Assembly (NCBI RefSeq): GCF_013315695.1
Contig: NZ_CP054353.1
Strand: one strand, 5' to 3'
From: Escherichia coli
GTDB lineage: Bacteria; Pseudomonadota; Gammaproteobacteria; Enterobacterales; Enterobacteriaceae
Length of the DNA: 64,000 nt
In this document: piece by piece, positions 39,866-44,988 of the stretch
Layout of the letters: the number at the start of each line of letters is the position of its first letter
Position numbering within the stretch: the stretch's first letter is position 1
Notes under the pieces: generated by a model
Database searches by the model: none
The model's input: the letters and a program-made list of their open reading frames with translations, nothing else
Told to the model about the DNA's origin: nothing
Made by a program: the position numbers and the translations under genes

Positions 39866-40270
39866 ATGGATCAGGTCGTTGTTTTTCAAAAGATGTTTGA
39901 GCAAGTGAGAAAAGAGCAAAACTTCTCCTGGTTTTATTCAGAATTAAAACATCACCGTATTGCACATTACATTTATTATCTAGCTACGGATAACATCAGA
40001 ATTATTACTCACGATGACACGGTTTTGTTATTAAGAGGAACCAGGAACCTGTTAAAAGTTAGTACGACCAAGAACCCTGCTAAAATAAAAGAGGCCGCAT
40101 TGCTTCATATTTGCGGAAAATCTACATTTCGGGAATACTGTTCAACACTGGCAGACGCGGGCGTTTTCCGGTGGGTTACTGATGTTAATCATAACAAACG
40201 CAGTTACTACGCCATTGATAATACGCTTTTATATATTGAAGATGTAGAAAACAATAAACCATTAATCTAG
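39866..40270 (+). CDS. ycgX: DUF1398-family protein YcgX
   Basis: 134 aa matching YcgX. Confidence 0.8.
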   Translation: MDQVVVFQKMFEQVRKEQNFSWFYSELKHHRIAHYIYYLATDNIRIITHDDTVLLLRGTRNLLKVSTTKNPAKIKEAALLHICGKSTFREYCSTLADAGVFRWVTDVNHNKRSYYAIDNTLLYIEDVENNKPLI

Positions 40271-40974: not shown

Positions 40975-41298
40975 ATGAAGTGGATAGTAATTGACACGGT
41001 AATTCAACCTACATGCGGTATATCTTTTTCAGCCATATGGGGTGATATGAAAATGATCATCTGGTATCAATCCACTATATTTCTTCCTCCTGGCAGGATA
41101 TTTACACCGGTTAAGTCTGGTATTATCCTTAAGGATAAAGAATATCCTATTACTATTTATAACATCGCACCATTCAACAAGGATTTATGGAGTTTACTCA
41201 AAAGCAGTCAAGAGTGTCCTCCAGGAGAAAGCAAAATAACAAATAAATGTTTGCATAATAGTTGCATTATAAAAATATGCCCATATGGGCTCAAGTAA
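40975..41298 (+). CDS. iraM: anti-adaptor protein IraM (inhibits RssB-mediated RpoS degradation)
   Basis: 107 aa [23 protein letters not shown]... matching IraM/YcgW; very AT-rich surroundings. Confidence 0.85.
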
Positions 41299-41400: not shown

Positions 41401-42651
41401 TTACATGTTCTTGATGATTGCATCACCAAACTCTGAACATTTCAGCAGTTTAGCGCCTTCCATCAGACGTTCGAAGTCATAGGTTACGGTCTTGGCATTG
41501 ATTGCGCCTTCCATACCTTTAACAATCAAGTCTGCGGCTTCAGTCCAGCCCATATGGCGTAACATCATCTCAGCGGAGAGAATAATAGAGCCTGGGTTTA
41601 CTTTGTCCTGACCGGCATATTTCGGCGCAGTACCGTGGGTGGCTTCAAACAGGGCGCATTCGTCACCGATGTTTGCGCCAGGGGCGATACCGATACCGCC
41701 AACCTGCGCTGCCAGGGCGTCAGAAATGTAGTCACCGTTCAGGTTCATACAGGCGATAACATCATATTCAGCCGGACGCAGCAGGATCTGTTGCAGGAAT
41801 GCATCAGCAATCACGTCTTTAATGACGATCTCTTTGCCGGTGTTCGGGTTTTTAACTTTCAGCCACGGGCCGCCGTCGATCAGTTCACCGCCAAACTCTT
41901 CACGCGCCAGCTGGTAGCCCCAGTCTTTAAACGCGCCTTCGGTGAACTTCATGATGTTGCCTTTGTGCACCAGGGTCACAGAGTCACGATCGTTAGCAAT
42001 TGCGTATTCGATCGCTGCACGAACCAGACGTTTGGTGCCTTCTTCAGAACACGGCTTAATACCGATACCGCAATGTTCCGGGAAGCGAATTTTCTTCACG
42101 CCCATCTCTTCACGCAGGAATTTAATCACTTTCTCAGCGTCGGCAGAGTCTGCTTTCCATTCGATACCCGCATAAATGTCTTCCGAGTTTTCACGGAAGA
42201 TAACCATATCGGTCAGTTCAGGGTGTTTAACCGGGCTTGGAGTGCCCTGATAGTAACGTACCGGACGCAGGCAGATGTAGAGATCCAGTTCCTGGCGCAG
42301 AGCAACGTTGAGAGAGCGAATACCGCCACCAACCGGAGTGGTCAGCGGGCCTTTGATGGCAACGCGATATTCACGAATCAGATCAAGGGTTTCAGCAGGT
42401 AGCCAGACATCCTGACCATAAACCTGTGTGGATTTTTCACCGGTGTAAATTTCCATCCAGGAGATTTTACGCTCGCCTTTATAGGCTTTCTCGACTGCAG
42501 CGTCGACCACTTTCAGCATGGCTGGGGTTACATCTACACCGATTCCATCACCTTCAATGTAAGGGATAATCGGATTTTCAGGAACGTTGAGTTTGCCGTT
42601 TTGCAGGGTGATCTTCTTGCCTTGTGCCGGAACAACTACTTTACTTTCCAT
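41401..42651 (-). CDS. icd: NADP-dependent isocitrate dehydrogenase
   Basis: 416 aa from [40 protein letters not shown]. Confidence 0.95.
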
Positions 42652-42824
42652 TCACCTCTCCTTCGAGCGCTACTGGTTTGCTCGTCTGCCACCACGTTGC
42701 ATATGCGTTTGCGTCCTGCGATACGGATGCGTTAGAGCAATTTTTTGTTAATGATTTGTAATTGGCTTGTCAATACTACCCTATTGTTTGCCGTCATGAA
42801 AGATGCGCGTTATTAGGCTATAAT

Positions 42825-42896
42825 GCGGCAATTCATAATCTCTGAAAATACCATGCAAAAAACTTCTTTTAGACCAAAGACAGTATTTTTCTGACC
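42825..42896 (+). pseudogene. orphaned ancestral 5' end of rluE (23 codons), separated from the rest of the gene by an islet
   Basis: Encodes MRQFIISENTMQKTSFR then diverges to PKTVFF*; MRQFIISENTMQKTSFRN is the K-12 RluE N-terminus by recall. Confidence 0.55.
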
Positions 42897-43232
42897 TTCA
42901 AATAAGGTATTAAATATCAATAATTTATATCAGATTTTAAGCAATAAAAAAAACCACCAGAGATAACTAACAAGGTGCTATTTGGTCAAAATTTGACATT
43001 ACTCGATTCAGCGACTATCTCACTTTGAGCACTATTGGGAAAATTATCAAAAGTCATAGTTGAAGCGACAAGCAACGAGTAAATTATGGCATCCCCCCTT
43101 TTTGAGGTTCACATGAAACGCTTTGCACTGATAGCTGTGAAACTCGTTGCCTTTACTGGTTCTGCATCTGCTGCAACCGAAGAAATCAACTTCAAGTAAC
43201 AGAAACACTATATAACAATGGAGTGTTGACAA

Positions 43233-43682
43233 ATGGATACTACCGAAGAACGCAATGGAACATATTTCTACAGAGGACACCCGAACCTGTCCAAAATAGA
43301 ACTACTCAACGTCATATTCCTTGAAGAATTCTGTAAGGAATTGGGGATTGATTCGGTATCAGGTGCAGCAATCTTATCTGGTCAACCGTGGCTGGGTACA
43401 AGAGCGAAGCCGCAAGGGGCAACCCTGGGAACAAGTGTTGTCTCAAAGTATGCGCGTATACTGATGAGAGATGCACGCATGCCTTTTGGTATTTCTGTTC
43501 ATACACCAGTGGGTGTAAGGATGCAGAAATCTAATAAGCTTGCTGCAATTATCGCTCGTTGGGTCCCGTGGATTGGTTGGGCTTCACTGTCGATGAGTCT
43601 TTACAGGGTTTCGACTCGTACCCAGGAAAAATACAATCTGATTGCCAAACCTCAAGACCGTATTAAGTGGACTTCCTTCTAA
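43233..43682 (+). CDS. hypothetical protein, first gene of an overlapping two-gene cassette
   Basis: 149 aa ORF; below-genome-average GC by eye; hydrophobic stretch AAIIARWVPWIGWASLSMSL near the C-terminus; 16-nt overlap with the next gene. Confidence 0.5.
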   Translation: MDTTEERNGTYFYRGHPNLSKIELLNVIFLEEFCKELGIDSVSGAAILSGQPWLGTRAKPQGATLGTSVVSKYARILMRDARMPFGISVHTPVGVRMQKSNKLAAIIARWVPWIGWASLSMSLYRVSTRTQEKYNLIAKPQDRIKWTSF

Positions 43683-44017
43683 TGGCGACAACAATCACAG
43701 ACGAAGTTTTAGCACTGTTCCGTGATGAGATTCCAGGTTATCAGGATGACCACGGGAAGGAAATTCCGTTAGAACTGGACTCTGATTTGTTCGACTATCC
43801 ACGAGATGATTTAGAGGACGCTATACGGAAATACAAAGAGAGGTTTGGGATTAACCTGGATAATCTGGACTGGTCTTTGTACCTTCCATGGGAGTCTGCA
43901 CCATTGCTTCAACGATGGTTCAAGCTCAAGCGGGAAGAGGTAGAAACAACACGTTTACCGTTAACTGTACGGATGTTTGCAGAATCAGCAGAAGCGGGAA
44001 AATGGCTGTATCAGTAG
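43667..44017 (+). CDS. hypothetical acidic protein (possibly DUF1493-like), second gene of the cassette
   Basis: 116 aa ORF; acidic LELDSDLFDYPRDDLEDAI segment and C-terminal ...GKWLYQ; family assignment from memory only. Confidence 0.5.
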   Translation: MDFLLMATTITDEVLALFRDEIPGYQDDHGKEIPLELDSDLFDYPRDDLEDAIRKYKERFGINLDNLDWSLYLPWESAPLLQRWFKLKREEVETTRLPLTVRMFAESAEAGKWLYQ

Positions 44018-44337
44018 AATAAAAAAGAAGGCTGCGATGCCCCTCTTATTACTGCTGATGATGGTAGTGGTAAAGCATCATCCTAAACTTGAACAGTGAA
44101 GTGCTGTCACCCATCAGTAATACAGAAACACTATTTTTCATACCAGTATTTATTCAATTCATCAATGTAAAATGTGTTCATTGGGCCATATTTATCACCA
44201 TGCAGCCACACAACCGCTGCTCACTAACCCAGGTATTGATGAAACCGCGCTGAAGAGCCTGAACCCTGAACCTCTAACGAGTACCTTAAAAGTCCAATGC
44301 AATCCGACACTGTGCTACCCTCTGCGTAAAGCTCTAT

Positions 44338-44988
44338 TTGGAATTTACCATGAAATACTTTAGCGATTCTAAATCTTCTTTTAGAAAAAAACAGGTTAGT
44401 CGACTAAACTCGCAACACTCCACTAAGCGTAAACCTGAAAACCAGCCCACGCGTGTGATCCTGTTCAATAAACCCTACGATGTTCTTCCGCAGTTCACCG
44501 ATGAAGCCGGACGCAAAACATTAAAAGAATTCATCCCGGTTCAGGGCGTTTATGCAGCAGGTCGTCTTGACCGCGATAGCGAAGGGTTACTGGTGCTGAC
44601 CAATAACGGCGCGTTGCAGGCGCGTTTAACCCAGCCGGGTAAACGCACCGGAAAAATCTATTATGTGCAGGTGGAAGGTATTCCCACACAAGACGCACTT
44701 GAAGCCTTGCGCAATGGCGTAACCTTAAATGATGGCCCTACCCTGCCCGCAGGCGTAGAGCTGGTTGACGAACCCGCGTGGTTATGGCCGCGGAATCCAC
44801 CAATTCGTGAACGCAAAAGTATTCCCACCAGCTGGCTTAAGATCACCTTATATGAAGGACGTAATCGCCAGGTGCGCCGCATGACCGCCCATGTTGGTTT
44901 CCCCACGCTGCGACTGATTCGCTATGCGATGGGTGATTACTCTTTGGATAATCTTGCCAACGGCGAATGGCGAGAAGCGACAGATTAA
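44338..44988 (+). CDS. rluE: 23S rRNA pseudouridine synthase RluE with a replaced, divergent N-terminus
   Basis: 216 aa; from [19 protein letters not shown] onward matches RluE; first ~35 residues differ from the K-12 N-terminus; alternative start ATG 44350. Confidence 0.8.

What the first reader, a model, noticed from the sequence alone, without database searches (positions are those of the whole stretch)
43113..43199. Small ORF encoding a signal-peptide-like 28-aa peptide inside the rluE islet
MKRFALIAVKLVAFTGSASAATEEINFK is preceded by a good ribosome-binding site (GAGGT, 6 nt upstream). It looks like a signal peptide plus 8 residues, so it may be the remnant N-terminus of a secreted protein or a small exported peptide. 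A second short hydrophobic ORF (MPLLLLLMMVVVKHHPKLEQ, 44027..44089) lies downstream of the cassette.
Basis: seen in the sequence. Interest (0 to 1): 0.25.

Follow-up and report, generated by a model that had tools for sequence, protein, structure and literature searches.

The report
Unannotated signal-like mini-ORF, probably non-functional
The 28-codon reading frame with a ribosome-binding site and a signal-peptide look is really there, but it sits in orphan leader DNA of a small strain-specific E. coli islet, has no longer relative anywhere, shows no sign of selection, and is most likely an ordinary by-product rather than a gene.

Summary
The ORF (43113..43199, MKRFALIAVKLVAFTGSASAATEEINFK) and its Shine-Dalgarno (GAGGT 43104-43108) exist as described. 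The second ORF is at 44037..44099, 10 nt off the stated coordinates.

The window is the E. coli icd/rluE region. A 1.5-kb islet (42874-~44370), present in 374 of 5426 complete genomes, is inserted in the 5' end of K-12-type rluE. It carries an STM2901-family (DUF8209) gene and a DUF1493 gene. In other Enterobacteriaceae this pair directly follows an hcp gene, so I infer it is an orphan T6SS-type effector/immunity pair. In E. coli, hcp is replaced by 359 nt of orphan leader DNA holding the small ORF.

No longer homologue turned up in 5.8 billion clustered proteins, 1.84 billion representatives, plasmids, phages or 100,044 species genomes. 'MKRFALIAV' is a generic signal-peptide start.

Among nine alleles there are 0 synonymous and 3 non-synonymous changes. 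The window allele has a derived Lys in the hydrophobic core. Escherichia sp. E1V33 has a frameshift and a lost stop while both cassette genes stay full-length. Shuffled 64-kb windows yield about 1.7 such ORFs.

Best reading: a non-functional ORF, fortuitous or a relic. A real micropeptide is not excluded (about 0.2). Low interest.

The parts
43113..43199 (+). The small ORF: 28 codons plus TAA, MKRFALIAVKLVAFTGSASAATEEINFK
   Evidence: It is intact in 8 of 9 compared alleles, with +6/-6 nt length variants in a TCTGCA-type hexamer repeat. It is frameshifted in Escherichia sp. E1V33 (L038).
43104..43108 (+). Shine-Dalgarno-like GAGGT, 4 nt before the ATG
   Evidence: Read directly from the sequence. 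Invariant in all aligned alleles.
43086..43112 (+). Upstream in-frame extension (MASPLFEVH) that gives the 37-aa version called by some gene finders. It contains a variable C6T5 homopolymer at 43093-43103.
   Evidence: It has no SD, and it is out of frame in the C5 allele of strain 1428 (L003).
42874..43232 (+). Orphan leader DNA of the islet, 33-39% GC. It takes the place that hcp occupies in related cassettes.
   Evidence: It matches only the same locus in 374 E. coli genomes, one plasmid-labelled record and one over-extended prophage record. It has no similarity to the upstream regions of L009-L015 or L050, or to Hcp.
43233..43682 (+). STM2901-family (DUF8209) gene, 149 aa; inferred T6SS-type effector
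   Evidence: NCBIfam NF045926 scores 156 bits against a cut-off of 110. PGAP annotates it. hcp lies directly upstream in L009, L014/15, L044/45, L046 and L050.
43682..44017 (+). DUF1493 gene, 111 aa; inferred cognate immunity/partner protein. Its start overlaps the upstream stop (TAATG).
   Evidence: Pfam PF07377 scores 103.6 bits against a cut-off of 21. PGAP annotates it. It follows the DUF8209 gene in every locus fetched.
44037..44099 (+).
   Evidence: It has only a weak AAGG upstream and overlaps a small hairpin. Alleles show K/E, L/F and E/K changes, and E1V33 has a premature stop. It lies outside the part shared with other species.
42859..42873 (.). Left copy of the 15-nt direct repeat AAAACTTCTTTTAGA, at the end of the K-12-like sequence (old rluE codons)
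   Evidence: family D3. The K-12 alignment breaks after 42873.
44371..44385 (.). Right copy of the direct repeat (AAATCTTCTTTTAGA), inside the new rluE 5' end
43199..43211 (.). Left copy of the perfect 13-nt direct repeat ACAGAAACACTAT; it starts at the last base of the ORF's stop codon
   Evidence: family D4.
44122..44134 (.). Right copy of the 13-nt direct repeat, about 100 nt after the DUF1493 stop
   Evidence: An IS3 element is inserted inside this copy in strain AST85.
42823..42894 (+). Stub of the displaced original rluE start: 17 codons from the K-12-annotated ATG (7 from the internal ATG at 42853), then 6 islet codons and a stop
44350..44988 (+). rluE with a replacement 5' end supplied by islet DNA
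   Evidence: PGAP annotation mapped from L001. The alignment beginning at the right repeat (44371-44486) is only 88% identical to K-12, with the mismatches clustered in its first ~60 nt.

Best explanation
The ORF is a lineage-restricted short reading frame with no selected product. It lies in the 359-nt orphan leader that replaced hcp in front of an orphan hcp-type (T6SS-like) effector/immunity pair (STM2901-family/DUF8209 plus DUF1493). That pair forms a small islet inserted in the 5' end of rluE.

Shown: the islet's boundaries, its content and its 7% prevalence. Shown: related cassettes have hcp exactly where the E. coli leader sits. Shown: the ORF has no longer or more distant homologue and no coding-type substitution pattern.

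Inferred: the leader is transcribed, either by read-through from the old rluE promoter region (a promoter-like site at 42796-42824) or from an unmapped promoter. Because the SD is good, ribosomes may well translate the frame and produce a 28-30-residue peptide with a Sec-signal-like or membrane-inserting N-terminus. This would be a by-product. I cannot separate two origins: a fortuitous frame in AT-rich DNA (about 0.4) or the dead 5' end of an exported-protein gene captured when the mosaic was assembled (about 0.3).
For: Context. The insertion breaks K-12-type rluE after 42873, and homology resumes at 44371. The islet is in 374 of 5426 complete genomes. NF045926 and PF07377 hits identify the two genes.

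Cassette comparison. hcp-DUF8209-DUF1493 triplets occur in five unrelated chromosomal neighbourhoods, and a C-terminal hcp relic survives in Cronobacter. DNA homology to all of these starts at 43230-43233, so the leader is not part of the conserved module.

No relatives. Only the same 35-48-aa ORF was recovered from 5.8 billion proteins and from 1.84 billion representatives.

Generic start. The nine-residue start is shared with at least 15 long ORFs with signal- or lipoprotein-like N-termini in unrelated phyla.

No constraint visible. There are 0 synonymous and 3 non-synonymous substitutions. T10K in the hydrophobic core is derived and is on 1000 or more contigs. Rare variants lose the start codon (P0076, P0093). 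Frameshift alleles exist (P0005, P0006/L038), and L038 also has TAA changed to TAC, while both cassette genes remain full-length there. The 136 nt upstream of the ORF are as conserved as the ORF itself (2.9% versus 4.3% variable columns), so the conservation is not ORF-specific.

Other. The length variants sit in a hexamer repeat, where slippage alone gives multiples of 6. The chance rate is 1.7 per shuffled window. PGAP never calls it. No Rfam family or significant RNA structure was found.
Against: The combination of an optimal SD, an n-h-c layout and an AXA motif is rare locally (0.3% of shuffled leaders).

The frame is open in over 99% of more than 2,300 contigs on which it was called, and all common length variants are in frame.

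The compared alleles differ by at most about 7% in the leader. The flanking bona fide genes also show weak synonymous bias at this depth (4:8 and 6:8), so the lack of a coding signature has little power.

Many genuine E. coli small proteins are unannotated, hydrophobic and lineage-specific (general knowledge).
Confidence: 0.7

Rival explanations
1. It is a genuine micropeptide. The ORF is translated into a 28-30-aa peptide that is either Sec-exported and cleaved after ASA, releasing ATEEINFK, or more plausibly retained as a single-pass inner-membrane small protein. It would be co-transcribed with the effector/immunity pair.
For: It has a good SD at optimal spacing and a canonical n/h/c layout with A-S-A. 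The heuristic that flags it otherwise picks mostly ORFs that look like real exported proteins. The frame is open in nearly all of more than 2,300 contigs, with in-frame length variants. The SD and ATG are invariant in nine alleles.
Against: No homologue exists outside this one Escherichia locus. It is absent upstream of every other DUF8209 cassette. All substitutions are non-synonymous, including a derived Lys in the hydrophobic core of the commonest allele. E1V33 has a frameshift plus stop loss while the neighbouring genes stay full-length. An 8-residue mature part is atypical for a Sec substrate.
Confidence: 0.18
2. It is an upstream ORF that controls the toxin-like gene. Ribosomes terminating at 43199 would open the small hairpin AACACU(43204-09)/AGUGUU(43222-27) that partly covers the GGAG of the STM2901-family gene, coupling its translation to that of the uORF.
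For: The stop lies 33 nt before the next ATG. The minimum-free-energy fold of 43185-43250 pairs part of the downstream SD. Toxin genes are often kept under tight translational control (general knowledge).
Against: The hairpin is weak and not significant (-9.8 kcal/mol, z = -1.4; 16 of 200 shuffles fold as well). The whole leader has z = -0.56. There are no compensatory changes, and allele 6EVA simply changes GGAG to GAAG. Other cassettes manage without any such uORF. The arrangement is destroyed in E1V33.
Confidence: 0.07
3. It is specifically a truncated 5' end (promoter, RBS, signal peptide) of an exported-protein gene, cut when the cassette was joined to it. This is a sub-case of the non-functional reading.
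For: The islet is a mosaic with junctions at 42873/4 and about 43230 and short direct repeats. The 240 nt upstream of the ORF look non-coding, like a promoter region. In E1V33 the stop is TAC; with that codon the frame would run to the TGA at 43227-29, exactly at the junction.
Against: No parent gene was found among about 15 billion proteins, although the cassette genes have dozens of 60-90% relatives. All E. coli alleles have TAA 31 nt before the junction. The 13-nt repeat starting at the stop codon suggests leader and trailer may once have been contiguous, in which case the ORF was always 28 codons.
Confidence: 0.3

Closest known systems
Sec-type (signal peptidase I) signal peptides of exported proteins
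   Same: It has a positively charged n-region (MKR), a hydrophobic core of about 11 residues, and small residues at -3/-1 (A-S-A). The first nine residues are identical to those of at least 15 long, signal- or lipoprotein-like ORFs in unrelated phyla.
   Different: Only 8 residues follow the putative cleavage site. The window allele has a Lys in the middle of the core. No homologous full-length protein exists.
Small (<50 aa) hydrophobic inner-membrane proteins of E. coli found by sORF screens (general knowledge of that literature)
   Same: The size, the single hydrophobic helix, the good SD, the absence from automated annotation and the lineage restriction all match.
   Different: Those proteins were validated by tagging or ribosome profiling and are usually conserved across Escherichia and Salmonella. 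This ORF has no expression data, is restricted to 7% of E. coli genomes and is disrupted in a sister species.
Orphan hcp-effector-immunity islands of type VI secretion systems
   Same: The two downstream genes (DUF8209, DUF1493) form a tight pair that directly follows an orphan hcp in Citrobacter, Enterobacter hormaechei, Winslowiella, Enterobacteriaceae bacterium 89 and a metagenomic contig.
   Different: The E. coli islet has no hcp and no hcp relic; the small ORF sits in its place but is unrelated. The effector/immunity roles of DUF8209 and DUF1493 are inferred from gene order only. No literature, no PDB relative and only a low-confidence model (pLDDT 62.6) are available.
Gene-end replacement by integrated elements, as with prophage e14 at the icd 3' end next door
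   Same: The islet interrupts rluE near its 5' end, brings a substitute start and N-terminal codons, and leaves the original start as a stub. Short direct repeats mark the ends.
   Different: No integrase or other mobility gene is present. About 55 nt of rluE to the right of the repeat are also replaced by a diverged version. Import by homologous recombination from another lineage is therefore as likely as site-specific integration.

Membership tests
Sec/SPase I signal peptide | Positively charged n-region within the first 2-5 residues | tested here: met
   K2 and R3 are present. Rare variant P0094 has R3L.
Sec/SPase I signal peptide | Uninterrupted hydrophobic h-region of about 7-15 residues | tested here: inconclusive
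   The T10 alleles have FALIAVTLVAF uninterrupted. The window allele has a derived K10 that splits the core into 6 + 4 residues. No dedicated predictor was available; only my own Kyte-Doolittle heuristic was used.
Sec/SPase I signal peptide | Small neutral residues at -3 and -1 (AXA) followed by a mature domain | tested here: not met
   An A-S-A motif is present, but only 8 residues (ATEEINFK) follow before the stop. There is no mature domain.
Remnant (pseudogene fragment) of an exported-protein gene | A homologue elsewhere with the same N-terminus and a longer reading frame | tested here: not met
   and 41/42 returned only copies of the same short ORF or unrelated proteins sharing the generic nine-residue start. 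Sensitivity is limited to high identity because the query is about 30 aa.
Remnant (pseudogene fragment) of an exported-protein gene | The reading frame runs up to a recombination junction | tested here: inconclusive
   The stop at 43197-99 is 31 nt before the junction at about 43230. E1V33 has TAC instead, which would extend the frame to the TGA at 43227-29. The ancestral state is unresolved.
Hcp (PF05638) remnant | Residual similarity of the leader to Hcp of related cassettes | tested here: not met
   tblastn of three Hcp sequences against the leader gave only noise. The same test recovered a 39-residue Hcp relic in Cronobacter (E = 9e-16).
Protein-coding gene under purifying selection | Excess of synonymous over non-synonymous change; frame kept in diverged orthologues | tested here: not met
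   There are 0 synonymous and 3 non-synonymous changes. E1V33 has a 1-nt deletion and stop loss. Frameshift variants P0005 and P0006 exist. Power is low because divergence is 7% or less and the neighbouring real genes show 4:8 and 6:8.
Leader-peptide attenuator / structured regulatory leader | Stable, conserved alternative RNA structures or a terminator after the leader ORF | tested here: not met
   No Rfam hit at E <= 1. Fold z-scores are -0.56 and -1.42. No terminator-like site on the + strand between 43199 and 43233.
Type I toxin-antitoxin small hydrophobic toxin | A known toxin or antisense-RNA family at the locus | tested here: not met
   No Rfam family on either strand. No Pfam, NCBIfam or PADLOC hit for the peptide.
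STM2901 family (NF045926) / DUF1493 (PF07377) pair (context genes) | Score above the curated cut-off | tested here: met
   156 bits against 110, and 103.6 bits against 21.
T6SS Hcp-dependent effector/immunity module (context genes) | Secretion by a T6SS, toxicity, and neutralisation by the partner | not testable with these tools
   Only gene order supports this: hcp is directly upstream in five loci.

The most novel reading that the evidence does not exclude
The ORF encodes a real 28-30-residue Sec-targeted or membrane-inserted micropeptide. It would have been recruited in place of hcp at the head of an orphan T6SS-type effector/immunity operon. It might act as a small membrane partner of the DUF8209 protein, or as a coupling uORF that gates translation of the toxin-like gene.
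Probability: 0.15. Interest if true: 0.35.

Novelty: not a real feature. Interest (0 to 1): 0.1.

Why it matters
It matters little as it stands. If the peptide were real, it would add one more lineage-specific hydrophobic micropeptide to E. coli, linked to an uncharacterised hcp-associated gene pair.

The more useful outcome is negative. A textbook-looking SD plus signal peptide is not enough to call a small gene, because a shuffled window yields one or two of them and 'MKRFALIAV' is a generic start.

The surrounding islet is the more informative object. It is an hcp-less copy of an hcp-DUF8209-DUF1493 module inserted in the rluE 5' end.

Tried and rejected
1. Hcp remnant. tblastn of Hcp from L009, L014 and L050 against the leader gave noise only, while the same test found a relic in Cronobacter. 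Rejected.

2. Detached N-terminus of a longer STM2901-family protein. The 160-171-aa database versions are just upstream-start miscalls (MEISFSLMHG...), with nothing signal-like. Rejected.

3. A conserved small ORF upstream of hcp-less cassettes in Lelliottia and Cronobacter. There is no DNA similarity and no signal-like ORF.

4. Parent-gene search.

5. The trailer as a gene relic. A 70-aa minus-strand reading of 44131-44350 has no homologue, and the trailer occurs only at this locus.

6. RNA element. There are no Rfam hits and no significant folding.

7. Promoter inside the leader. The consensus scan found only 42796-42824 (the old rluE promoter region) and a weak 42897-42924 site, no more than shuffles give.

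8. Function of the cassette proteins. PADLOC and PDB sequence searches were empty. The AlphaFold model had pLDDT 62.6, too poor for a fold search.

9. Literature. Nothing on the peptide string or DUF8209, and only incidental mentions of STM2901 and DUF1493.

Full report
**1. What is in the sequence**

The window is the E. coli icd/rluE region. icd runs on the minus strand at 41401-42651. rluE, nudJ, mnmA and hflD follow on the plus strand from 44350.

The ORF named in the finding is present exactly as described. ATG is at 43113, there are 28 codons, TAA is at 43197-43199, and the peptide is MKRFALIAVKLVAFTGSASAATEEINFK.

The second ORF (MPLLLLLMMVVVKHHPKLEQ) is at 44037-44099, not 44027-44089. 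Only a weak AAGG precedes it.

**2. Where it sits**

Alignment with K-12 shows near-identity from icd through the intergenic region up to 42873. A K-12-like sequence resumes only at 44371, and that second alignment (44371-44486) is only 88% identical, with the mismatches clustered in its first ~60 nt.

The break lies inside the 5' coding end of K-12-type rluE. That is 17 codons after the K-12-annotated ATG and 7 after the internal ATG at 42853. The old start is left as a stub ORF. A new rluE start at 44350 is supplied by inserted DNA. A 15-nt direct repeat (AAAnCTTCTTTTAGA) marks both ends.

This 1.5-kb islet is present in 374 of 5426 complete E. coli genomes, always at this locus. One further match is a plasmid-labelled record, and another is a 'phage' record that is an over-extended prophage cut including the host genes icd to hflD.

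PGAP annotates two genes in the islet:
- An STM2901-family protein at 43233-43682 (NF045926, 156 bits against a cut-off of 110).
- A DUF1493 protein at 43682-44017 (PF07377, 103.6 bits).

PGAP annotates nothing over the small ORF in any of the 30 records sampled across the ranking.

**3. What the cassette is elsewhere**

Relatives of the STM2901-family protein (Pfam DUF8209) with 42-92% identity occur across Enterobacteriaceae and are always followed by a DUF1493 gene.

An hcp gene (PF05638, 160 aa) lies 12-13 nt upstream of the pair in each of these, in a different chromosomal neighbourhood each time:
- Enterobacteriaceae bacterium 89
- Citrobacter
- Enterobacter hormaechei
- Winslowiella
- the closest non-E. 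coli relative, a metagenomic contig with a 92% identical protein

Cronobacter keeps a 39-residue C-terminal Hcp relic. One Winslowiella contig has a broken hcp.

I therefore infer, from gene order only, that the ancestral module is an orphan hcp-effector-immunity triplet of the type VI secretion kind, and that the hcp-less copies are derived.

DNA homology between the E. coli islet and all these loci begins at 43230-43233, essentially at the start codon. It ends within or just past the 3' end of the DUF1493 gene (43991-44027). Two parts of the islet are orphan DNA found only at this Escherichia locus: the 359-nt leader (42874-43232) that contains the small ORF, and the 330-nt trailer. The leader has no residual similarity to Hcp.

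**4. Is there a longer or more distant homologue?**

No.
- The word-indexed search of 5.8 billion proteins returned six proteins of 35-48 aa. All are the same ORF called from the upstream ATG at 43086, and two carry frameshifted tails.
- An exhaustive HMMER scan of 1.84 billion representatives returned only itself.
- tblastn on plasmids, and blastn on plasmids and phages, gave only the same locus.
- A degenerate pattern for MKRFALIAV scanned over one genome per 100,044 species gave 24 hits. Twenty-three are in unrelated phyla; at least 15 are long ORFs with signal- or lipoprotein-like N-termini, and none resembles the rest of the peptide. The nine-residue start is therefore generic. The remaining hit is the same islet in Escherichia sp. 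E1V33.
- The N-terminally longer database versions of the STM2901-family protein are upstream-start miscalls with nothing signal-like.

A 30-residue query can only detect near-identical relatives, so a diverged parent gene cannot be excluded.

**5. Does it evolve like a gene?**

I compared nine alleles: the window, six E. coli genomes chosen across the identity range, the 'phage' record, and E1V33.

- The ORF has 0 synonymous and 3 non-synonymous substitutions: K10T, V12I and E24G.
- Length variants of +6 and -6 nt lie in a TCTGCA/TCTGCT-type hexamer repeat, where slippage alone would keep the frame.
- The Lys in the hydrophobic core of the window allele is derived. E1V33 and the most divergent E. 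coli alleles have Thr. The Lys allele is nevertheless the commonest, on 1000 or more contigs.
- Rare variants change the start codon (M to L, M to I), R3, and other residues.
- In E1V33 a 1-nt deletion shifts the frame after codon 14 and the stop is TAC, while both cassette genes remain full-length. The same frameshifted product was called independently on two Logan contigs (P0006).
- The 136 nt upstream of the ORF are as conserved as the ORF (2.9% versus 4.3% variable columns). The first 103 nt of the leader are far more variable (15%).

All of this argues against a strongly constrained peptide, but the power is low. Divergence is at most about 7%, and the two bona fide genes show only 4:8 and 6:8 synonymous to non-synonymous changes.

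In favour of a real gene, the frame is open in more than 99% of over 2,300 contigs on which it was called. That count is biased, because alleles with the C5 tract put the upstream ATG out of frame and the 28-codon version is probably too short for most gene callers (my assumption).

**6. Chance**

I wrote a deliberately simple filter: K/R near the N-terminus, no acidic residue in the first 18, a hydrophobic window, an AXA-like site, and a 4-nt SD core.

- In the real window it flags nine starts. Apart from this ORF, most are full-length ORFs that look like genuine exported proteins.
- Dinucleotide shuffles of the whole window give 1.73 +/- 1.32 such ORFs.
- Shuffles of the islet give 0.02, and shuffles of the leader give 0.003.

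The ORF is locally unusual, but it is within what a scan of 64 kb would turn up.

**7. Other readings tested**

- No Rfam family matches either strand.
- The leader has no significant fold (z = -0.56).
- A 6-bp hairpin between the ORF's stop and the next gene partly covers that gene's GGAG. It is weak (z = -1.4) and shows no covariation. A coupling-uORF role is therefore possible but unsupported.
- The consensus promoter scan finds the old rluE promoter region (42796-42824) upstream of the islet and nothing convincing inside the leader. Read-through from there would put the ORF on an mRNA. This is inference.
- A perfect 13-nt direct repeat (ACAGAAACACTAT) begins at the last base of the ORF's stop codon and recurs about 100 nt after the DUF1493 gene. 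If it marks insertion of the cassette into once-contiguous leader and trailer DNA, the ORF was always 28 codons, which speaks against truncation. If instead the junction at 43230 is the relevant one and the E1V33 TAC is ancestral, the frame would have run exactly to the junction, as a relic would. I cannot decide between these.

**8. Verdict**

My best estimates are:
- About 0.7 that the ORF has no selected product. Roughly 0.4 of this is a fortuitous frame and 0.3 is a dead 5' end of an unknown exported-protein gene.
- About 0.18 that it is a genuine small membrane or exported peptide.
- About 0.07 that it acts as a regulatory uORF.

Nothing here would surprise a specialist, and interest is low. 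The surrounding islet and the hcp-DUF8209-DUF1493 module are the more informative features.

Noticed in passing
window 42823-42894 and 44350-44430: The islet is inserted inside the 5' coding end of K-12-type rluE. The original start and 7-17 codons remain as a stub. Islet DNA supplies a new ATG and N-terminus ([15 protein letters not shown]...). The next ~55 nt of rluE are a diverged version of the K-12 sequence (the 116-nt alignment across them is 88% identical). This resembles the way prophage e14 replaces the icd 3' end next door.
   Followed up: partly
L009 2506-3782; L014 2507-3809; L044 2507-3788; L046 2507-3782; L050 666-1947: hcp-DUF8209(STM2901 family)-DUF1493 three-gene orphan modules sit in five unrelated chromosomal neighbourhoods across Enterobacteriaceae. 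This suggests an uncharacterised, mobile, Hcp-linked effector/immunity pair. No literature was found on either family's function.
   Followed up: partly
L012/L013 about 2840-2990; L047 2507-2989: There are stages of hcp decay upstream of the same cassette: a 28-39-residue C-terminal Hcp relic in Cronobacter turicensis, and an hcp split into 73-aa and 57-aa pieces in one Winslowiella-type contig.
   Followed up: partly
window 43199-43211 and 44122-44134; also 42875-42896 vs 44123-44144: A perfect 13-nt direct repeat (ACAGAAACACTAT) brackets the two-gene cassette plus about 100 nt. A third, 77%-similar 22-nt copy lies right after the left islet junction. In strain AST85 an IS3 element is inserted inside the right copy. 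These may be traces of nested insertion events or a recombination site.
   Followed up: no
window 43093-43103: A C6T5 homopolymer run just upstream of the SD varies between alleles (C6, C5, CCACCC). It decides whether the upstream ATG at 43086 is in frame with the small ORF.
   Followed up: partly
window 42989-43001: A perfect 6-1-6 palindrome, GTCAAA-A-TTTGAC, overlaps a TTGACA hexamer in the well-conserved 3' half of the leader and is invariant in all nine alleles. It could be an operator or a -35 element for the cassette.
   Followed up: no
L016 (ON470584.1, 'Escherichia phage vB_EcoM-689R6'): This phage-database record is a partial prophage cut that runs into host DNA (icd, the islet, rluE, nudJ, mnmA, hflD). 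It annotates the 37-aa ORF as a hypothetical protein and a 43-aa minus-strand ORF in the leader as 'alpha-amylase', an evident mis-annotation.
   Followed up: yes
window 44131-44350, minus strand: The trailer has a minus-strand reading (...WLHGDKYGPMNTFYIDELNKYWYEK*) that looks protein-like and is interrupted by two stops. It has no homologue in the 5.8-billion-protein search.
   Followed up: yes
window 40975-41298 and upstream, 39866-40270: Just beyond the icd 3' end lie iraM, ymgK/L and ycgX-type genes in AT-rich (about 34% GC) DNA instead of an e14 prophage, so this strain's icd-flanking region differs from K-12's on both sides.
   Followed up: no
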